From the human T2T-CHM13v2.0 reference genome, Homo sapiens: a stretch of 64,000 nucleotides of DNA. The number at the start of each line of letters is the position of its first letter. Position 1 is the first letter of the stretch. This document shows, piece by piece, positions 22,477 to 60,061 of this stretch. The notes beneath the pieces are model-generated. The model did no database searches and was not told the origin of the DNA. It saw only the letters and a program-made list of their open reading frames with translations. Made by a program: the position numbers and the translations under genes. The stretch lies in NCBI RefSeq assembly GCF_009914755.1, contig NC_060929.1; one strand, written 5' to 3'.

Positions 22477-22656
22477 AATAACAATTATTTATTATATTAT
22501 ATTATTATTTATTGTATTTATTCACAATAATTTATCATAAATGTTATTATAAATAGCAATAATAATTAAGGAAGAATATGAACCCACCACCCAAACAATG
22601 TGCTCTGTTTCATTCCTTCACCACAAACACTGTATCCTAAGAATTATTTCTGCAGC

Positions 22657-22807
22657 TGGCACGGTGGCTCACGCCTGTGATCCCAGCACTTTGGGAGGCT
22701 GAGGTAAGAGGACAGGTTGAGCCCAGGAGGTCAAGGCTGCAGTGAGCTATGATCACACGTGACAGAGTAAGGCTCTGTCTCAAAAAAAAAAAAAAAAAAA
22801 AAAAAAA
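22657..22807 (+). mobile_element. Monomeric/internally deleted old Alu (FRAM/AluJ-like)
   Basis: Single Alu arm with long A tail. Confidence 0.8.
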
Positions 22808-24619
22808 CACCTCTCTGTTACATGAGCTCATGTTTATCAGTTTTAATAGTAGCATCAGGTGCTCATCAGGTTACATCTAATTTGACTTGTCACAATAAGG
22901 TTATAAATCCCATAAAGAGAGGAGCCGAATCTGTTCTATTCACTGATGTATACCCAGCACCTAGCACAGTACTTGCACAAAGAAATCATTCAATAAATGT
23001 TTGTTGAATGTATGAATGAATGGTAACTTGCTTGATACAAACAATTCTGGGGAGATGCTACTGGCAACATGGTCACCCAGGTGTCAATCATACAATACAA
23101 CCCTGCCACTCGGTGGGTGCTTAGGAAGATGTGGAAGGAATAATCTTTTAGGAGGAGATGGGACATAATAGATGTTTAATACACATACTCACCGTTTGAT
23201 CATTGTAAATACATTTTTGGTAATGGTTTCATTGAGATACAATTTACATCAAATCCATACATTTCCAATAAACTTTTTATTTTGCAATAATTCTATACAG
23301 AAGAGTTGTAAAGATAACACAGAGAGTTTCTGTATAAACTTCACCCTTCAGTTTCTCCTAAGGTCACCTTCTTACACAAACAAGGTATGTTTATCGTAAC
23401 TAAGACACTAACATTAATACATTATTATTAAACTAAATTTTAAACCTTATTCAGATGTCACCAGATTTTTCTTTTATGTCCCTTTTCTGTGCAAGGAAGC
23501 AATCCAGTAGACCATTTCACATTGAGCACAATTATGTTTGCCAAGCTGATTCTACCATGATTTACCTTTGACCAGCTGAATTTTTTTTTTCAGTTATCAG
23601 CTTCAGGAATTTAAAAAAAAAAAAAAGTCTCACCCAAATTAGCAAAATGGAACCAAAACAGATTCTCCACTTTAGTTAAGTTCCTTGCTGCCTCCTTCAT
23701 AAGGAAGGCCATGCTTTCTTTTCTCAGCTTTGTGCACCCTCATTATATGACCCATGTTACGCCCCAGGGACCCAATGTTTTACGGGTTTGTGCAAACCTA
23801 AGTCATCTGTAGGGTCCTAAGTCACGTGCCTACTGCCAGTGCTAACACTGTGCAGAGTTAGACCTCAGCCAAGTTTTTTGGGATGATTTGAGGTTTGCAT
23901 CCAGTCTTGGATTCCAGAAATCATACTTTGCACCTATTTCCATGTGTATTTTTAGAGTGAACTTGTTGGGAGAAAATGAATATGATCTAATGATAAGTAA
24001 AAGAGCAGGACACAAAATTCAACACGCTGGGCTGTTACAGCTCTGTCAAAATACACGTAGGAAAGAAAGAAGATACCCAAAGCAATTGTTGTCATATTAG
24101 GGTGGCAGGATTATGGATAATATTTTTGTCTTTCCTACATTTTCCAAACTTATTGCCATATTGTATTTTGCTTTTTATGATGATAATTTCTATAATTAAA
24201 AAATAAATGTATACTCAAACTAAATATACAACTTAAAATATAACTCCTTTGAAAGGAGACAGTCAGTGAGGAAAAGTGCCTAGGACAAGGAAATAAGTGC
24301 TGGCAACAACAGCATTTATTTGGTAATAAATATTCAATAAATGTTTGTTGAATGAATGCGTTAAGTAATTTACAGGGATCATCTCATTCAATTCTCAAAA
24401 GTACTTCAGGAGAAAGTGCAGTTATTACCCCCATTTTGCAGGTAAAGTAACTGAGGCACAGAGAATTTAAATAACTTGTTCAAGCTTCCCCAGCTGGTAG
24501 GCGACAGAGCTGCAACTTGAACCCACTGAGTCTCCAAACACAGTTACAGAAGGATGGAAAAAGAGGGAGAGAGAAAAGAAGGAAAGACACGAGAAAAAAT
24601 GGTTTCATCGGTGAGAACA

Positions 24620-50787: not shown

Positions 50788-51078
50788 GGCCCGGTGTGGT
50801 GGTTCATGCCTGTAGTCCCAGCACTTTGGGAGGCTGAGGCAGGAGGATCGCTTGAGCCCAGGAGTTTGAGACCAGCCTGGGCAACATGGCAAAATCCTGT
50901 CTCTACAAAAAATTTAAGAATTAGCCAGGCGTGGTAACCCATGCCTGTAGTCCTAGCTGGTCAGGAAGTTGCGGCAGGAGGGTTGCTTGAGCCAGGAAGG
51001 TTGAGACTGCAGTGAGCCATGATGGTGCCACTGCGCTCCAGCCCAGTTGACGGAGCGAAAGCCTGCCTCAAAAAAAAA
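50788..51078 (+). mobile_element. Alu (J-type)
   Basis: Alu dimer with A tail. Confidence 0.9.
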
Positions 51079-52871
51079 GTATATTTTTTGCTTATTTGTT
51101 TGCTTTATTCTGTTTTGTTTTGGGGAAAGATCCAGAAGACAGCAGGCCATCAGCTCTGTGCTACAGGGTAGCAGAGAGTTCTGCGTCAGGCCTCAGGGCA
51201 TCTTGGCAGACACCTCCCTGTCCCCAGTTCCCAGTCTCCCTCCCCACTGTGGCTCAGCCTGGCTCTCCACTAGGCCGGGAGCAGGCTCTGCCTTATCTCC
51301 AGACGCCTGTTATCTGCACACCCATCTGTGGACAAATGGCCAGCCGGCTGGCTCCTGGGCACCCCTGCCTAGAGGGGAGTCCGCCTCTCAGGCCTGTGTC
51401 TGGCAATTTGGGCTGGAGCCCAAGGTGGGGGGTCTCCCAATGGAGGAGGCCCCGCTCAGCCCTACCCCTGGGGCTTTAAGCCCTAAAATGATGCTGCTTA
51501 GACATTCCATTCATGGGACAGGAATCCGGGCCAGGAAAACCATCCCATCCCACCATCCTTCCCTCACTTCGTTTCACATCAGGCTCTGTAAGGTGGGTAA
51601 GGGCCGCAATTGTCATTCCCATTGAGCAAATGGAGAAACTGAAGCTAAGTGAGGAGCTGTGTTGTGTTGCAGGTCACAGAGCAAAACAGCAGCCTTTCAG
51701 GGACTAGAACCTAGGCCCCTTAGCTCCCATCCTAGCCTCCAAGAAGGAGAACTCGCAGACCTCATGCTCCAGGCCCCACCCTGCCATAGATGCCAGGGGC
51801 AGGGGCACAGTCATGTCCATTCTTTGGGCCTTAGTTTCTTCACCTCTCAAGCAGAGATAAAAGTGGGTGACAGGGAGGAGCCTGTCCTTAGCTCCAGAAG
51901 GCCAGGGAAGCAGCAGGCAGAGTCGGGCAGGGCGTGAAGCACGTGGGGCTCTGGGCTCACCCTGCTGGGGCTCAAGTCCCACTTTCCCCGCTTATCTCAG
52001 TGTGACTTTGAGCAATCACTTGACCTCCCTCTCTGTGCATTGGTTTCCCCATATGAAAAAAACAGGGGAAGAACAACACGAGTCAACCTCCATGAAGTGC
52101 ATAGCACGTAATGAGTGCTCATAAGTGTGAGTTACTGTTGTTTTTGTTCGCAGGAGAATATGGCGTAGTAATTACAGTATTGGGGTTGACGAACTGGCTG
52201 TGCTGTGTGACCTTGGGCAACTGACTTAACATCTCTGAGCCTCTGTTTTCTCATCTGTAAAACAGGGGCAGTGTGTCTTTGAGGCTCTAGTGAGGGTCTT
52301 GGCACAGATTGTGGCCCCATTGGCTGGGGTGAAGCTGGGAGCTGCCAGTGACCTGCAGGGAGGGGTGCCTGCCTGAAAGATGGAGACAGCCTGCAGGCCT
52401 TTGTTTACAGAGCCCATCTCTCCTCTGATGGATGCGGCCAGCAGAAGTCTGTTTGCAAGTTTCTCCTGGAAACATGAATCAAGGTCTGTTTGGAGAACAC
52501 GTGCGCTCCTCTGTCAAACATTCCACCCGTGCTGGGGCCACAGAGCCTTGAGAGCAGAGTGGGTCCCAGATTGTCCCCAGAGATAGGGGATAGGCCAGGA
52601 TACCCAGCCCCTCTGGCCAGGCTTCAGAGGGGACAGCCTGGGCTCCGAGACAGATGCCCTCCCTGGCCTCAAGGAGCTCTCTAGAAAGCAAGATAAGACC
52701 CGGACTCGACCAGAAAACAGGGAGAGATAAGGACCCATCTGCTTCCACTCTTGTCCCCTCTGATCCTCCACAGCAGCCCTGAGTGATCTTTTTAAAATGT
52801 AAATTTCATGGCTCACTCCTGCTCACAACCCTCTGTGACTTCTTTAGTAGTTGAATCAAAATCTGATTCCA

Positions 52872-53166
<295 letters not shown>

Positions 53167-54084
53167 TCAGATTCCTTAAACATGGTCTTGGAGGTCAAGT
53201 GGGATCTCACCCCTGCCTGCCAGTGGGACGCCAGCTCCCAGCCCCTCTCCCCTTGCCACACTGGTTTTCTTCCAGCTCCTCAAGCAAGCCTACCTCATGC
53301 CCTTCCCAGCCCTTCCCACAGGTGCTCCCTTCTCCCTGCCCCATCCAGGTGGCCCTTCTCACACTCAAGCTGAGCTTGGCCTCCCTGACCACCCCTTGTC
53401 ACAGCACCTTACTCTTGCCTGGGTGGCCAACATCAAATTTGTAATGATGTGTGTATCTGTGTGTGTACACGCTCAGTCTCTGGGTGGGGCCAGGGTCACA
53501 CATCAGTGCATGCTCAGCCCCTGGCACAATGCCTGCCACATAGAAGGCTCTGTACAAATATTTATTTAATGAATGAGTAACTGACCAGGAGGAGGACTGA
53601 TCTTATTCTTGAGGTCAGTCTTATTATCTTATTATTCGGCTCACTGCAATTTCTTGAGGTCAGAAAATGGACAGTCATATCCAGTAGAGAGGAAATCAGA
53701 GAAGATGTTTTGGGGAAATTGGCACTAAAGCTGGGTTGTGATACTCGGGAAGACTTTGACTGGTGGAGAGGAGAAAAGGAGAGTGTAGTGTTTAGGCTAT
53801 GGGTAGGCACTGAGTTGAGGAAAGGCAGCAATGTGAGGTGCTGAGACCCTAGGCTGCAAATGCAGCCACCTGGGGCAAGTCTCTTCAATCTTTTGAACCT
53901 CAGTTTCTCTATCTGAAATATGGGGATGATGATATCAACTTCCTAGACAGAGCATATGAGGAGGAAATAAAGCTTTTCATCAGGGCTCAAATTGCAAGTA
54001 TCATGATTACACATTTTTATTTCACCACCATGCCAATCTGAAGATAGGGGTATTATTGTCTGCATTTTCCCCTGATACTAAATT

Positions 54085-54750
54085 TATTTTATTTATTTAT
54101 TGGAGATGGTGTCTCACTATGTCACTCCGGCTGGAGTGCAGTCACTCTTCTCAGGTACAATCACAGCGCACTGCGGCCTGGAACTGCTGGGCTCAAGCTA
54201 TCTTCTTGTCTCAGCCTCCCAAGCAGCTTGGACCGCTTGGGTATGTAGTGGTGCACTTGACCTCCAGATGTACACCGCTGACCTCGGCTATATTTATTTT
54301 TAATGCTACATATTTTTTAAACATTGAAACTATCTCAAATTTATAGACAAGCTGCAAGCATGGTACATAGAAGTGCTTTTCCCCCAAATGCTTTGAGAAT
54401 AAGTTGCGGATATGATGCCCCAACTCACCTGAACATCTTTGTGTTTATTTTCAATAAACAAGGACAATCTCTTACAAACCGTAATACAGCCATCACCATC
54501 AGGAAATTAATATCGACACATTCCTACCATCGAATCCTCAGATCCCCTACAAGATTCTCACTGGGTTAGAACAACGTGCTGTGTTTAGTTGCCACATTCT
54601 TTGGTTTCCTTCAAACAAGTCCTCAAACTTTCTCTGAATTTTGTGATCTTGACATTTTGGAGCTCACTGGCCAACTAGCTTGAAGAATGGGCCTTAATTG
54701 GGTTTCGTTTGATGATTAGGGCCAGGCTACGCATCTTTGGCAGGAACACC
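54085..54750 (-). mobile_element. Old Alu monomer (~54085-54290) and L1MC fragment (~54300-54750)
   Basis: GGAGATGGTGTCTCACTATGTCAC..GGCTGGAGTGCAGT; TTTGAGAATAAGTTGC...AACAAGGACA.TCTCTTACA.AACC signature. Confidence 0.65.
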
Positions 54751-55059
54751 ACGGTCATTTCTTCTGTCTGCATTGTTTCCAGGTAAGGAAACCAAGAAGG
54801 TGGGAAAGGAAATGTGAAATGGCCTCTGAAAAATCCTGAGGTGGGAAAGTATGTGGCATATCCTACTTTAAGTCCTTTCTGCTGCAAGGATGTCCTCATT
54901 TGCTAGATTTTCACTGCAGCTGATCCTGGCCAGAACCCTCCTGACATCAGGGAAGAGGCTAGAAGGGGTTAGGGGCTTTTTAGAAGTTGTGGGCGGTGGG
55001 TGGGGGAGTGGAGAGGGGTGCCGCACTTTCCCCAAGAGACGAGGGCGCTGAGCTCCCGG

Positions 55060-55078
55060 TATCCTCTAGGTGGCGCAC
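55060..55078 (+). promoter_or_regulatory. Candidate CTCF site
   Basis: TCCTCTAGGTGGCGCAC matches the CTCF core CC(A/T)CTAGGTGGCGC within a small CpG-containing patch. Confidence 0.5.
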
Positions 55079-55432
55079 AATTCTCTGGGGAAAAGGAGAA
55101 TTCCAGGTGAACTAATTCCACGGGAAGAAGGGTTGGTTTGGGAGGGGCTAAGCCCTGCCTACGGGCTCCTGTAGGGGAATCAGCTCCCCATCCCCCTGCT
55201 CCCTCCAGAGCAGCGCCCAGCATTCAATCATTCGCTCGCATTTATTTGTCTCCCGCCTGCCTGTGGCCAAGACTTGCCATTTGTAGGTCACAGCACAAAG
55301 CGGAGGAGGGCAGGGTTGTCTGACTTGGAGCTCAGGAAACCTCGGCTTGGGGCTGGTTTTGCATCTGAGTTGCTGTAAGACTTAGCACCTTTCTGGGTCT
55401 CAGTCGTTCCAACAGTTCAAAAAAGTGAGGAT

Positions 55433-55722
55433 GGCCGGGCGCGGTGGCTTACGCCTGTAATCGCAGCAGTTTAGGAGGCCAAAGCGGGCGGATCTCGAGG
55501 TCAGGAGTTCAAGACCAGCCTGGCAAAGAGGGTGAAATCCCATCTCTACTAAAAATACAAAAAATTCGCCGGGCGTGGTCGCAGGCGCCTGTAATCCCAG
55601 CTACTCGGGAGGCCGAGGCAGAGAATTGCTTGAACCCGGGAGGCAGAGCTTGCAGTGAGCCGAGATCGCGCCACTGCACTCCAGCCTGGGCGACAGAGTA
55701 AGACTCCGTCTCAAAAAAAAAA
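55433..55722 (+). mobile_element. Alu (Sg-like, CpG-rich)
   Basis: Full Alu; TSD AAAAAAGTGAGGAT. Confidence 0.93.
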
Positions 55723-58447
55723 GTGAGGATGTCAGCTTGGCTAGATTATAGTCCTGCTTCATCACCCAACCCCCAACCCCTATCTGTCTCCATCTTGAGC
55801 CCACCCTGGCCCCAGACTCCTCCTCTGTCCCATAAGAAAGGATTAAACTCTCACAAACTGATGAGAATGAAGTGTGAAAGGGCCTACAGGGTTTGAATGA
55901 GGGGGGAGGGGCTGACGCTTCAGAGCTAGCTCTACCCCCACAAAGGGGAGGTGGGGGGAGGGAGCTGGAAGGCTTGGAGGGACCTATCTTCCTCCACCCA
56001 ACTCCCAGAGCTAAGCAGTACCGTGGCCCCCCACTCTTCCAGTGCTGCTGGCCTATGGCTTGCTTATCAGGGGTGGCACCCCCACTAATGCAGCACGGGG
56101 TGTCCAGGGACTGAGATCGGCTCTCGAGTTCCCCTGTGGCCACAAACTGTCCTCTGGGACAGTTGACTTGCTTGGCGGTGCCTCATTTTCTTCATCTGTA
56201 AAACGGGCCAAAACCACTTTTGTCACAGAGTGACATCCTTGCAACAGCCATACTGCTGTTTAAAATCTTCCATCTGCTTCTCCTTCCTGCAGGGCAGGTG
56301 TAAAGAAGGCCTGGGGTGACCCAGCATCCTGACTTGGAGAAGATCCTATGGGGGAAGAGGGCCATGGAGTGGTCATCGCAGATAAGGGGCCCTTTGGTGC
56401 TTTCTGTCCCATGTGCGCTAATAATTCTTCAGCCACAGACAGCATCTTTCGACATCCAAAGTACTCTCATATCCATGACTTTATGTGACCCTCACATTCT
56501 ACCTTGATTGGTGGGAAACTGAGGCTGGTAAAAGGAGTTGTGACTTGCCCAAGATCACACATCCAGCCAGCAGCCAAGTCAAGCTGTAGAGTGCAGTGGA
56601 TAAGAGGATGGTATCAGGCCATCCTGGCTCTGCTGTGCTTAAGCCGTGTGGCCTTAGGCACGTCATTTCACCTCCCTGAGCCTCGGCTTCTTCATTTATC
56701 AGTAGGAATAGTGCAGAATTGTTCTGAGGGTTAAATAAAACAAACAGAGTGACATACTGGGTGCCATCCTGGTTTTGGTAACATTCAGAGCCAAAACACA
56801 CCTTTCTTGGTTCTAAGTGACTATATCTGGGGAGTGGGGACTTGTCTTTTTTTCCTCCTACATCTTGCATCTCGCTGGTATGATTTCCATGTCCCATCAC
56901 ATCAGTCTCTTCCCCAGGTCTTCCAGGCTCCACTGTCAGCACTAAGAAGTCAGGGATTGGGTGTGGCTTGCTCCCCGCTGTAAGCCCAGCACATAGCACA
57001 GCACCTTACACTGAGTGAGAATAATGGCTCATATTTTAAGTGCTCGCTGTGTGCCACTCCTGTGCTAAGCACTTTCTCTGCCTCTTTTCATTTAATCCTC
57101 ACAATTCTACAATGTAGGAGGTATGATTCTCATCCCCATCACAGCAGTGATGGAACTGGTATCAGAAAGGGAAAGCAACCAGCTCAGCAGAGCCAGGCAT
57201 GTCTGTGCGACTCCAACACTCAACCGCACGGCAGGCTCAGCAGCTGTTCTCTGCTTATAAAGCACATGGCGCCTGGCACATTGGTCACCCTCAATCCATG
57301 GCATTGGATCTTTGTCACCTGACTGTCATCATCCCTTCTGACTCTCAGTCCCTCCTCTGAACAACAGCTGTGTGTTGGCCCCATTCATGTCCCACCAATG
57401 CCCAGTCCTTTAGGGGGCTCCCCAGCTAGCCAAGGTGACCCCATGCTAACATTTCCCAAGCTCTTTCCTCAAATTTTATCTCCATCATCAATGACCAACT
57501 CCTCTGTGTCAGAGGCAAACAGCTCCCACCCGTATTTATTTCACCCCAGCTTTGTCTATTTATAGGAAGCTGGCTTGTCCTGATGCTGTTTCTGTTAACA
57601 AGGCAGGCATCTCAGCCAACTGGGCAGAAAAGCAGCAGAAACCTTCAGTCCTGCCCATAAAGGCCCCAGAAATGTCTCTGCCTCCAGAGGTTTTTGAGAA
57701 ACTGCTGCAAGGGGAATTATGAGTGTAAACTTGCCCCCTCCCTCTGCCCGCCCCCCAGCCCTCTCATCTGGACAATAACAGCTCCCATCTCATCTCTGAG
57801 AAACCATTCCCGAAGGTTCCAGCTGAGTGCAGGATTAGGCCTCAGGGTGGCAATTAGCTGATAAGGCGATGACTTCACCCAGAGCAGAGAGAGCCTGGCT
57901 AGCTGGAGCCTGTCCCTGCAGGACACCCTGCCCTGGGCCTCTCTCCCTGGACTTAGAGACAGGAACCCTGGCCCAAGGCTTGGGGAAGTCTCTTCCCCTC
58001 TCTGGACCTCTGATTGCCCCTGTGTGAAATGGAGCATGTTCTGACCTTCACAGGCTTGTGGGAAGCTCCAGTAAAATAAGAAATAAGATCTTGCTCAGAA
58101 AGAATCCCTGGCAGCAGTGCATTGCTGACCATAGACAACCATAGAACTGGAGCCTTTTCTGGAATATTCCTGAAGGAACAAAGAAAAGAGGCACTGGCCA
58201 GGGAATCAGGTGGACCTGAGTTTCTGAGCACAGGCCCTGTGTTCACCAGCTGTGTGCTCTCAAGCAGGCTGCCTCCCTTTCCTCTCTGTAAAATGGGACA
58301 GTGTTTGTGCCTTGTCTTCCTCGCACATGGTTTTGAGATGCAGAGATAACTGAGGAAGGAGAGCTGAGCGGATAAGATCACAGGTTTCAGAGCATGTGGG
58401 CCTGGCTTCGAGTGCCTGTTTGACCCCTTACTAACTGTGTGCCTTTA

Positions 58448-59280
58448 TGTTGATGGCTTGTATAAGACCTCGGTTCTTGTCTTCTTAGTTTAAAAGAATT
58501 TAAACAAGAGACACCCAGCAAAGGAGGTGAATCATAGAGTAATTTGTCGAAAAATAAAAAGATATTTTGCAGGTGGATCACTTGAGATCGGGAGGTCAAG
58601 ACCAGCCTGGCCAACATGGTGAAACCCCATCTCTACTAAAAATCAAAAATTAGCTGGGTGTGATGGCACGTGCCAGCTCCTCAGGAGGCTGAGGCAGAAG
58701 AATTGCTTAAACCCGGGAAGTGGAGGTTGCAGTAAGCCAAGATCATGCCACTACACTGCAGGCTGGGCGACAGAGCAAAACTCTGTCTAAAAAAAAAAAG
58801 CAGATTCCTTAAAAATGACCTTGGAGATAAAGTGGGATCTTGCCCCTGCCTGCCACTGGGACCCCAGCTCCCAACCCCTCTCCCCTTGCCACACTGGTTT
58901 TCTTCTCTGTCTGAAAAAAGAGAAAAGAAAAAAAGAAAAAGAATATTTTGAAAGGTCAGGGTGGGCTGCTCACGAGGATGAGTCAGCCAAGACTGGCACT
59001 AGGGAAGCTCCCTTTACAGGAATCTTCCAGCATTATTCATAAGGAGGTAGGAAGAGGTGTTACTATTATAGTAAGCATGTTCTGGGTGGTCTCTGGGTGC
59101 ACATGCTCAGTAGCCACACATACTTTTTCATACGTAGCATGTACAGTTCATTAGCATCTTAAATCTCCACCCAGGGGTGTGTTTTTACTATTATAATGAG
59201 CAAAGGGTCAGTCTGAGGACAGGTAAAATCAAAATGTGCATGCTGTCTGGAGGAGAAAGTCCCTACTGAATATAGCTTCA
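58448..59280 (-). mobile_element. ERV1-class LTR fragment, interrupted at 58570-58950
   Basis: GGTTCTTGTCTTCTTAGTTTAAAAGAATTTAAACAAGAGACAC...CATTAGCATCTTAAATCTCCACCCAGGGGTGTGTTTTTACTATTATAATGAGCAAAGGGTCAG resembles MER4-group LTRs; subfamily not assigned. Confidence 0.65.
58570..58935 (+). mobile_element. Composite insertion: 5'-truncated Alu + 105-bp copy of 53168-53272 + A-rich tail
   Basis: TSD AAAAAGATATTTTG (58556-58569) / AAAAAGAATATTTTG (58936-58950); 58801-58905 aligns ungapped to 53168-53272. Confidence 0.85.

Positions 59281-59613: not shown

Positions 59614-60061
<448 letters not shown>

What the first reader, a model, noticed from the sequence alone, without database searches (positions are those of the whole stretch)
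53168..58950. Alu insertion carrying the 3' flank of a neighbouring Alu 5.6 kb away: local Alu 3' transduction or templated capture
Seen: 58801-58905 is an ungapped copy of 53168-53272 (10 mismatches in 105 bp). In both places it directly follows an Alu A-tail. The 52872 Alu has its own TSD and continuous flanks, so it is the donor. The copy (58570-58935) is a 5'-truncated Alu + flank + TCTGTCTG + A-rich tail, bounded by a new ~14-bp TSD and splitting an ERV1 LTR. Homology ends 4 nt after the first T4 run downstream of the donor (53265-53268), where a Pol III Alu transcript would terminate. The TCTGTCTG-AAAA that follows looks like another Alu 3' end. Established: Alu cDNA normally primes on the internal A-tail, so the unique 3' trailer is rarely copied. 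Inference: either the full Pol III transcript was joined to an Alu tail (analogous to U6/L1 chimeras) and retrotransposed, or a nascent Alu cDNA switched template onto nearby DNA. The close proximity favours a cis/local mechanism.
Basis: partly seen in the sequence, partly recalled or inferred. Interest (0 to 1): 0.75.

Follow-up and report, generated by a model that had tools for sequence, protein, structure and literature searches.

The report
Alu carrying a neighbour Alu's flank
A truncated Alu inserted in an old retroviral LTR carries, just before its own tail, a copy of the A-run and 105 bp of unique DNA that lie behind another Alu 5.6 kb away, a rare local copying event whose mechanism (DNA repair or reverse transcriptase jump) is still open.

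Summary
58801-58905 copies 53168-53272 without gaps (95/105). The whole T2T genome holds this 105-bp stretch at only these two places. In both it directly follows an Alu A-run. The copy sits inside a 366-bp block (58570-58935) bounded by a real 15-20 bp target-site duplication: 18 of 18 inspected paralogs of the surrounding LTR-like repeat carry the motif once. The block ends in an 8-9 nt Alu 3' end plus an A-rich tail.

The two Alu bodies share no private mutations and are no closer to each other than to other Alus in the window. Their estimated distance is 0.19 against 0.10 for the flank (p 0.07-0.18). So the flank came from the 52872 locus, but the Alu body need not have.

Two other loci found genome-wide show local copies placed just before an Alu's last 11-13 nt. 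One of them is clearly far younger than its host Alu.

My odds:
- DNA-level template switch from an ordinary truncated Alu into the neighbouring Alu and out into its flank: 0.40.
- ORF2p jump onto the donor's read-through transcript: 0.30.
- cDNA switch to nearby DNA during insertion: 0.15.

Primate orthologs would decide. Interest is moderate.

The parts
52858..52870 (+). left target-site duplication of the donor Alu (AAAATCTGATTCC)
   Evidence: read; matches 53161-53175 with 1 mismatch and a 2-nt indel
52872..53164 (+). donor Alu (AluS-like body 52872-53155, A9 run 53156-53164)
   Evidence: Non-CpG divergence from the window majority is 21/236 and 13/19 CpGs have decayed (18/232 and 15/21 with the wider CpG list). 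It now holds an internal T4 at 52911-52914.
53161..53175 (+). right target-site duplication of the donor Alu, overlapping the start of the copied flank
   Evidence: CAGATTCC recurs in the copy at 58801-58808, which fixes the direction donor to copy
53168..53272 (+). unique 3' flank of the donor Alu, the template of the copy
   Evidence: 95/105 identical to 58801-58905, only 2 places in the genome
53265..53268 (+). first and only run of four or more T within 500 nt behind the donor tail; homology ends 4 nt after it
   Evidence: an arbitrary endpoint falls in or within 4 nt after it with probability 0.012-0.02
58446..58569 (+). left part of the multi-copy LTR-like repeat that was split; its last 14-20 nt (58550/58556-58569) are the left TSD copy
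   Evidence: 40 scored of 217 candidates, paralog matches start at query 193-218..
58570..58788 (+). 5'-truncated AluS-like body, starting about 45 nt into the Alu (my estimate against a recalled consensus) with a 9-bp internal deletion, ending CTCTGTCT at 58781-58788
   Evidence: Non-CpG divergence 15/184 and 15/17 CpGs decayed (14/180 and 16/19). 75% identical to the donor Alu, 80% to the Alu at 55433.
58789..58799 (+). A11 run corresponding to the donor's A9 tail
58800..58905 (+). copy of the donor's 3' flank (58801-58905 ungapped), including the donor's TSD remnant and TTTTCTT(C) at its end
58905..58913 (+). second Alu 3' end, CTCTGTCTG (8 of 9 nt as in Alu ends; the first C could equally be donor flank)
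   Evidence: of the five other window matches, four are ends of standard Alus and one is the end of an internally deleted Alu. CTCTGTCT also stands at 58781-58788.
58914..58935 (+). A-rich tail (AAAAAAGAGAAAAGAAAAAAAG), the tail on which insertion was primed
   Evidence: directly abuts the right TSD copy
58936..58950 (+). right TSD copy AAAAAGAATATTTTG (may reach back to 58931)
   Evidence: 18 of 18 inspected paralogs hold the motif once
58951..59278 (+). right part of the split LTR-like repeat; about 36-40 bp present in paralogs are missing between 58956 and 58957

Best explanation
Two steps, the second at DNA level.

Step 1 (shown): an ordinary 5'-truncated AluS-type element entered the LTR-like repeat by L1-type target-primed reverse transcription. 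It made a 15-20 bp target-site duplication and ended in ...CTCTGTCTG plus an A-rich tail.

Step 2 (inferred): a break or stalled fork at the junction of this Alu's 3' end and its tail let the growing sense strand pair with the homologous 3' end of the same-orientation Alu 5.6 kb upstream. The strand copied that Alu's A-run and 105 bp of its unique flank. It then returned to its own template 8-9 nt before its own tail with 0-2 nt of microhomology. The result is a duplicated CTCTGTCT and a patch of about 125 bp. This could have happened well after insertion or during second-strand synthesis of the insertion itself.

It is not a mobilisation of the donor Alu.

The wider statement, that this is a local templated copy rather than a classical trans 3' transduction, I hold at about 0.85.
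For: - The outer block has all L1 hallmarks.
- The flank exists only at the two places. It begins exactly at the Alu/A-run junction in both, which Alu homology would guide.
- The patch lies between two copies of CTCTGTCT (58781-58788 and 58905-58912). Exit and re-entry at nearly the same point of the recipient Alu would give this.
- The Alu bodies show no sign of common descent after insertion. One shared non-CpG variant is present in 6 of the 16 window Alus with a base at that column. Of 10 jointly decayed CpGs, 3 went the same way and 7 differently.
- The donor is among the three window Alus least similar to the copy's body region: 75.3% over that region, against 75.3-83.7% for all window Alus, two of which score no higher. 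The copy is 79.7% identical to the Alu at 55433.
- Estimated distance of the Alu pair is 0.19 against 0.10 for the flank pair. The likelihood-ratio p is 0.07 with the CpG rate factor calibrated on 22 other window Alus, and 0.18 from non-CpG sites alone.
- A donor only 5.6 kb away is expected for DNA template switching. It is very unlikely (about 2e-5 per event for a 64-kb neighbourhood in 3.1 Gb; my arithmetic) for a trans RNA copy.
- An analog was found with a genome-wide pattern. At C2:70.155 Mb a TSD-bounded old Alu has non-CpG divergence 16/220, 14/19 CpGs decayed, and a best other Alu of 86% among the 40 scored of 4779 candidates. It holds a 163-bp patch between its body and its last 13 nt. 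The patch is 157/159 identical to an inverted copy about 1 kb away, so it was added long after the Alu.
- At C5:70.0 Mb a unit made of an Alu's last 11 nt, its A-run and about 92 nt of flank stands twice in tandem.
Against: - The copied flank ends 4 nt after the only T-run of four or more within 500 nt. The chance is 0.012-0.02 for an arbitrary endpoint, judged post hoc. A DNA-level switch gives no reason for this, whereas an RNA polymerase III product or a 3'-end acceptor does.
- The difference between body and flank distances is not significant (p 0.07-0.18, and 0.15-0.39 if CpG sites decay 10-15 times faster). A body copied from a then-young donor Alu is therefore not excluded.
- No stretch of donor-like sequence is visible inside the copy's Alu 3' end, so the homology-guided entry point is inferred, not seen.
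- The second junction has at most 1-2 nt of microhomology.
- The two analogs were found with a pattern that demanded TTTT before the Alu end. Their T-runs therefore say nothing, and only 20 distinct places among the 153 matches were inspected.
- An allele with the Alu but without the patch has not been seen; no primate orthologs were available.
Confidence: 0.4

Rival explanations
1. One-step RNA chimera. During insertion at the LTR, L1 ORF2p primed on an Alu A-tail and copied 8-9 nt. It then jumped to the 3' end region of the donor Alu's polymerase III read-through transcript (Alu, A-run, 105-nt trailer), either another RNA or the dangling trailer of the same molecule. It copied back through the trailer and A-run into Alu sequence and stopped, or transferred back to the first Alu RNA, about 45 nt from the Alu 5' end. 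This would be a true Alu 3' transduction by template jump, using a transcript made 5.6 kb away.
For: - One TSD pair, one A-rich tail and an EN-like site enclose everything, and both parts are in sense orientation. The same holds for the 452 TSD-bounded Alu/LINE-1 chimeras, mostly AluJ/AluS-era, reported in PMC13174262 (section 12 read).
- The flank ends next to the only T-run of four or more in 500 nt, where a polymerase III transcript should end or pause.
- The short second Alu end plus tail is what a primer-proximal jump would leave.
- No shared private mutations are needed if the donor Alu was young and active at that time.
Against: - At least 3 nt beyond the T4 (CTT) are donor sequence. 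The template was therefore not a transcript terminated in the T4, and the next T4 is 440 nt further on.
- A trans RNA has no reason to land 5.6 kb from its gene. A cis preference for local nascent RNA is not documented to my knowledge (recalled; not searched).
- No other copy of the flank exists in the genome, so the donor left no other such offspring.
- The Alu bodies look older than the flank pair (weak).
- A screen of 118,489 full-length AluY in this same assembly confirmed no Alu transduction (bioRxiv 10.1101/2024.04.29.591526, parts 1-2 of 3 read). That screen covered neither AluS nor truncated copies.
Confidence: 0.3
2. One-step DNA capture. Insertion of an Alu aborted after the tail and 8-9 nt. 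The cDNA 3' end then switched to the nearby genomic DNA at 53272 and copied 340 nt leftwards: flank, A-run and donor Alu back to about 45 nt from the Alu 5' end. It was then joined to the upstream target end. On this reading the Alu body too is a DNA copy of the donor.
For: Locality, a single TSD pair and the short second Alu end. Chimeric L1 insertions that engage nearby endogenous copies during insertion are described in cell culture (recalled: Gilbert et al. 2005; not read here).
Against: - The cDNA end would have had 1 nt of homology at 53272, while a perfectly homologous Alu end lay 116 nt to the left.
- This reading requires the body to descend from the donor. There is no positive sign of that, and there is weak evidence against it.
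- It does not explain the T-run endpoint either.
Confidence: 0.15
3. Ordinary segmental duplication or end-joining capture of a 336-bp DNA piece, or a low-copy repeat family, with the TSD and tail being pre-existing LTR sequence.
For: None beyond the bare repeat.
Against: - Similarity stops at 52932/58576 and 53272/58905, and nothing else lies on the diagonal.
- Only two genomic places hold the stretch.
- 18 of 18 inspected paralogs have the TSD motif once and no A-rich tail there.
Confidence: 0.03

Closest known systems
L1/SVA 3' transduction, and the sought-for Alu 3' transduction
   Same: A retroelement copy carries unique DNA that lies directly 3' of a source element. The whole is TSD-bounded and A-tailed.
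   Different: - The flank is not followed directly by its own poly(A). An 8-9 nt Alu end lies between them.
- There is no polyadenylation signal.
- The source is only 5.6 kb away.
- Descent of the element body from the source is not shown.
- For Alu, none was confirmed among 118,489 full-length AluY in T2T-CHM13. According to that preprint the only cases in print are an Alu monomer (Kojima) and AluSx3+WaluSat (Hoyt et al.) (10.1101/2024.04.29.591526).
Chimeric retrocopies made by ORF2p template switching or RNA ligation (U6/L1, Alu/L1)
   Same: Two sense-oriented RNA-derived parts inside one TSD pair, the 3' part supplying the A-tail. PMC13174262 reports 253 snRNA-type and 452 Alu/L1 chimeras.
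   Different: The 3' partner here would be only 8-9 nt of Alu. The 5' partner would be an Alu with its genomic trailer, a feature that paper does not discuss: a term search in it for 'trailer', 'Pol III' and 'Alu RNA' found 0. The partners are neighbours in the genome.
Alu/Alu-mediated rearrangement by template switching (AAMR; FoSTeS/MMBIR) and non-allelic Alu gene conversion
   Same: Two same-orientation, roughly 80% identical Alus a few kb apart serve as substrates, with a local donor and little or no microhomology at the non-Alu junction. AAMR is documented as a source of copy-number variants (PMC6071635; search listing only).
   Different: Known AAMRs delete or duplicate the whole interval between the Alus. 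Here the interval is untouched and only about 125 bp (A-run plus flank) were written into the recipient, by two switches. Known Alu conversions stay within the Alu.
Templated insertions and local dispersed duplications at breaks
   Same: A short stretch is copied from nearby DNA into a break. The C2:70.155 Mb analog is of this kind.
   Different: Here the entry point coincides with an Alu/A-run junction in both donor and recipient. This points to homology guidance or to a reverse-transcriptase step.

Membership tests
L1-mediated (target-primed) Alu insertion | target-site duplication flanking the insert, absent from the empty site | tested here: met
   58556-58569 against 58936-58950. 18 of 18 inspected paralogs carry the motif once. 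These 18 were chosen from the 45 loci with both flanks, out of 58 paralog loci fetched, some of them the same place fetched twice. The true empty ortholog was not available.
L1-mediated (target-primed) Alu insertion | A-rich 3' tail abutting the 3' TSD, and a T/AAAA-like nick site | tested here: met
   The tail is 58914-58935. The left flank reads ...AAT|AAAAAG.
3' transduction | the offspring carries unique sequence that directly follows the source element | tested here: met
   95/105 identical, two places in the genome, the source's TSD remnant included
3' transduction | the offspring element body descends from the source element (shared private changes) | tested here: not met
   No private shared non-CpG change. 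CpG decays in the same direction: 3 of 10. Body distance 0.19 against flank 0.10, p 0.07-0.18. A source that was unmutated at the time would also give this result.
3' transduction | the transduced stretch ends at the transcript's natural 3' end (for polymerase III: within a run of four or more T) and is followed directly by the tail | tested here: not met
   Homology runs 3-4 nt past the T4, and 8-9 nt of Alu end stand before the tail.
ORF2p template-switch chimera | two sense-oriented parts within one TSD pair, the 3' part being the 3' end of a polyadenylated template | tested here: met
ORF2p template-switch chimera | both parts arrive on the same branch of the primate tree | not testable with these tools
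   No primate genomes are held; only the window's own assembly could be searched.
Alu/Alu-guided template switch (AAMR/MMBIR-type) or conversion with flank read-out | two homologous Alus in the same orientation, with a local donor | tested here: met
   Both are on the + strand, 5.6 kb apart, 75% identical today.
Alu/Alu-guided template switch (AAMR/MMBIR-type) or conversion with flank read-out | the patch is younger than the recipient Alu | tested here: inconclusive
   The likelihood-ratio test has p 0.07 (k=7.66) to 0.39 (k=15). It is met clearly only in the analog at C2:70.155 Mb.
Alu/Alu-guided template switch (AAMR/MMBIR-type) or conversion with flank read-out | a chimeric Alu junction (recipient-like upstream, donor-like downstream) | tested here: inconclusive
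   The last 60 nt of the copy's Alu are as unlike the donor as the rest. The switch would have to lie at the very end of the Alu or in the A-run.
   Only the multi-copy nature was seen: 217 and 364 first-look candidates, with the 40 scored in each search 78-88% identical. No repeat library was available.

The most novel reading that the evidence does not exclude
The block is a one-step fossil of an Alu primary transcript with its 3' trailer. ORF2p primed on an Alu A-tail, copied 8-9 nt, then jumped to the end of the donor Alu's polymerase III read-through RNA at the T-rich stretch TTTTCTT and copied the trailer, the A-run and Alu sequence. That would be a true AluS-era Alu 3' transduction made by template jump, using RNA transcribed 5.6 kb away. 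It would imply that insertion complexes can capture local nascent polymerase III transcripts.
Probability: 0.3. Interest if true: 0.75.

Novelty: new variant of a known kind. Interest (0 to 1): 0.45.

Why it matters
Alu elements are transcribed past their A-tail to the next T-run, yet their copies almost never carry that trailer. The one systematic screen found no case among 118,489 full-length AluY. A TSD-bounded Alu with another Alu's trailer is therefore either a rare direct trace of how ORF2p handles the trailer, or a look-alike made by DNA repair between neighbouring Alus.

Telling the two apart matters for anyone screening for Alu transductions. Local Alu-to-Alu template switches would be a systematic source of false positives, and the two further loci found here suggest that the 3' end of Alu is a recurrent site for such local patches.

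If the RNA reading holds, it would show capture of local nascent RNA during insertion.

Tried and rejected
- **Repeat family or chance:** rejected.
- **Wider segmental duplication:** rejected. The Alu-like match 54083-54232 / 59693-59831 at a similar offset is only 72% identical and also matches other Alus.
- **Pre-existing double motif in the LTR:** rejected.
- **Tail borrowed from the next sense Alu (55433-55731) on one long transcript:** no support. Its end and tail read differently, and no other window match to the tail motif exists apart from ordinary Alu ends.
- **Canonical polyadenylation at 53272:** rejected. No AATAAA or ATTAAA lies upstream (read).
- **Splice-donor junction at 53272:** rejected. 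The site looks like an acceptor (TTTTCTTCCAG), not a donor.
- **Reverse direction, 58801 as source:** rejected, because the flank starts with the donor's own TSD half.
- **Subfamily diagnostics to separate the two Alus:** led nowhere. Both look AluSx/Sz-like by recalled diagnostics, the copy lacks one informative site because of its 9-bp deletion, and no repeat library was available.
- **Ranking window Alus by identity:** uninformative by itself, because parent and offspring that split early look like any same-age pair.
- **Orphan Alu end at 22774:** an internally deleted Alu, not an analog.
- **L074 (C1:43.9 Mb):** looked like an analog, but it is a separate mini-insert about 200 nt behind an Alu that has its own TSD.
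- **Survey of all 153 pattern hits:** could not be completed.

Full report
**What is there**

The window holds a sense-strand Alu at 52872-53164. It has an aged TSD, 52858-52870 against 53161-53175.

5.6 kb downstream lies a 366-bp block, 58570-58935. It is made of:
- a 5'-truncated Alu, 58570-58788;
- an A11 run;
- an ungapped copy of the 105 bp behind the first Alu, 58801-58905 against 53168-53272, with 10 mismatches;
- CTCTGTCTG, 58905-58913;
- an A-rich tail.

The 105 bp occur only at these two places in the 3.1-Gb assembly. The copy begins with the right half of the first Alu's TSD, so the 52872 locus is the source of the flank.

Nothing else outside Alus matches on this diagonal. In a self-comparison of the whole window, only two other pairs survived a filter that dropped pairs lying mostly in Alu intervals. 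One (78% identical) is unrelated non-Alu sequence; the other (83%) has one arm in the Alu at 50788-51043.

**The outer block is an L1-type insertion**

Its flanks belong to a dispersed LTR-like family. The searches returned 217 and 364 first-look candidates, with 40 scored in each.

In 45 of 58 fetched paralog loci both flanks lie within 600 nt of each other. Some of these loci are the same place fetched twice. I printed the junctions for the 18 loci whose alignments reach the junction. All 18 carry the motif AAAAAGAATATTTTG, or a close variant, once, with no A-rich tail.

In the window the motif stands on both sides of the block, at 58556-58569 and 58936-58950, and possibly extends to 20 nt. 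The left copy follows ...AAT.

The window's LTR copy also lacks about 36-40 bp that the paralogs have, 6 nt beyond the TSD. Whether that deletion came with the insertion is unknown.

**Is the Alu body also a copy of the donor?**

I aligned 24 window Alus.

- Over 174 shared non-CpG columns the two Alus differ at 26 (14.9%). The flank differs at 9/103 to 10/105 (Fisher p 0.19-0.20).
- The only shared non-majority non-CpG base is carried by 6 of the 16 window Alus with a base at that column.
- Of the CpGs that decayed in both, 3 went the same way and 7 went different ways (plus the 58/59 pair read).
- The donor is among the three window Alus least like the copy's body region (75.3%, range 75.3-83.7%). 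The copy is closer to the Alu at 55433 (79.7%).
- I calibrated the CpG decay factor on the other 22 Alus (k=7.7). With it, the Alu pair's distance is 0.19 against 0.10 for the flank pair. The likelihood-ratio p is 0.07, or 0.18 from non-CpG sites alone, and 0.15-0.39 for k=10-15.

The bodies are thus either unrelated insertions or parent and child that split when the parent was still unmutated. The data lean to the former but do not decide.

**The endpoint**

Homology ends 4 nt after the T4 at 53265-53268. This is the only run of four or more T in the first 500 nt behind the donor tail, and the next one is at 53708. An arbitrary endpoint falls there with probability 0.012-0.02, judged post hoc.

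At least CTT beyond the T4 is donor sequence, so a transcript terminated inside the T4 is not the exact template. Termination within the whole T-rich stretch TTTTCTT is conceivable; non-canonical polymerase III terminators are recalled, not read here.

**Locality**

A trans RNA copy would land within a 64-kb neighbourhood of its source about 2e-5 of the time (my arithmetic). The flank also has no other copies. The mechanism was therefore local: either DNA as template, or RNA used where it was made.

**Analogs**

A genome-wide pattern (TTTT, 0-6 nt, Alu end, A6) gave 153 matches against 10 for the reversed control. I read 20 distinct places.

Most are a T-run directly before the last 13 nt of Alu, the near-palindrome GAGAC..GTCTC:
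- 7 are sense Alus with an inner stretch replaced by a T-run.
- 3 are joined to antisense Alu sequence.
- 3 are mini-inserts in other sequence.
- 1 is a tandem duplication in the tail.
- 4 are short ends in unique DNA.

Two resemble the finding.

At C2:70.155 Mb a TSD-bounded Alu carries a 163-bp patch between its body and its last 13 nt. The patch is 157/159 identical to an inverted copy about 1 kb upstream. The host Alu is old: non-CpG divergence 16/220, 14/19 CpGs decayed, and a best other Alu of 86% among 40 scored of 4779 candidates. That patch was therefore written into an old Alu by a local DNA-level event, or has been kept alike by conversion.

At C5:70.0 Mb the unit [last 11 nt of Alu + A-run + about 92 nt of flank ending in TTTT] stands twice in tandem.

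Both were found with a pattern that demands the T-run, so their T-runs carry no weight. What they show is that local copies placed just before an Alu's last 8-13 nt recur.

**Weighing the readings**

All readings explain the TSD, the tail and the unique flank.

- *DNA-level Alu-to-Alu switch.* This explains locality, the exact start at the Alu/A-run junction, the duplicated CTCTGTCT and the unrelated bodies. It has a clear analog. It leaves the T-run endpoint to chance.
- *RNA jump.* This explains the endpoint approximately and the short second Alu end. It belongs to a documented class: 452 Alu/L1 chimeras (PMC13174262, section 12 read). It needs an undocumented cis use of local RNA and a then-unmutated donor.
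- *cDNA switch to nearby DNA.* This shares the weaknesses of both.

I put them at 0.40, 0.30 and 0.15.

**Relation to what is known**

Alu 3' transduction is regarded as absent or very rare. There were 0 confirmed cases among 118,489 full-length AluY in this same assembly. According to bioRxiv 10.1101/2024.04.29.591526 (parts 1-2 of 3 read), the only anecdotes are an Alu monomer and AluSx3+WaluSat. That screen excluded AluS and truncated copies, so this locus was outside it.

My searches for 'Alu transduction' phrases found only that preprint and one L1 paper. I found no description of this locus or of Alu-tail patches, but the library lacks most subscription journals.

The event is best filed as a new variant of known kinds (template-switch chimera or Alu/Alu template switch), not a new category.

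**Verdict**

Interest is moderate.

Noticed in passing
window 58956-58957: The split LTR-like repeat lacks about 36-40 bp that its paralogs carry, only 6 nt downstream of the TSD. This may be an independent slippage deletion or part of a messy insertion event.
   Followed up: partly
genome-wide; e.g. L070, L081, L085, L074, L087: A T-run directly followed by the last 13 nt of Alu (near-palindrome GAGAC-TCY-GTCTC) and an A-run is recurrent: 153 pattern matches against 10 for the reversed control. It occurs inside otherwise normal Alus, where it replaces an inner stretch, next to antisense Alu pieces, and as mini-inserts. T-run, 13-mer and A-run together form a perfect hairpin, which suggests snap-back or template-switch products at the Alu 3' end.
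   Followed up: partly
L088:1338-1505 (G000 C2:70155882-70156044) and C2:70154822-70154980: An old TSD-bounded Alu holds a 163-bp patch before its last 13 nt. The patch is 157/159 identical to an inverted copy about 1 kb upstream. In the source the copied stretch lies exactly between two TTTT runs on that strand.
   Followed up: partly
L098 (G000 C5:70001890-70002490, minus strand): An AluY-like element is followed by a tandem repeat of [last 11 nt of Alu + A-run + about 92 nt of flank ending in TTTT]. The two flank copies differ at 4 positions.
   Followed up: partly
window 58570-58788: On the copy's branch, 7 of 11 non-CpG changes are G to A on the Alu sense strand and none is C to T. This strand-asymmetric pattern could reflect cytidine deamination of first-strand cDNA. 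The sequence contexts are mixed.
   Followed up: no
window 53168-53272 / 58801-58905: All 10 mismatches lie in the first 74 nt. The last 31 nt before the junction are identical.
   Followed up: no
window 52911-52914: The donor Alu now has a T4 inside its left arm (CACTTTTGG). Today this would stop polymerase III before the body is transcribed. It lies upstream of the part shared with the copy.
   Followed up: no
window 22650-22810: A sense Alu with a large internal deletion (left-arm start joined to right-arm end) and a long pure A-run.
   Followed up: no
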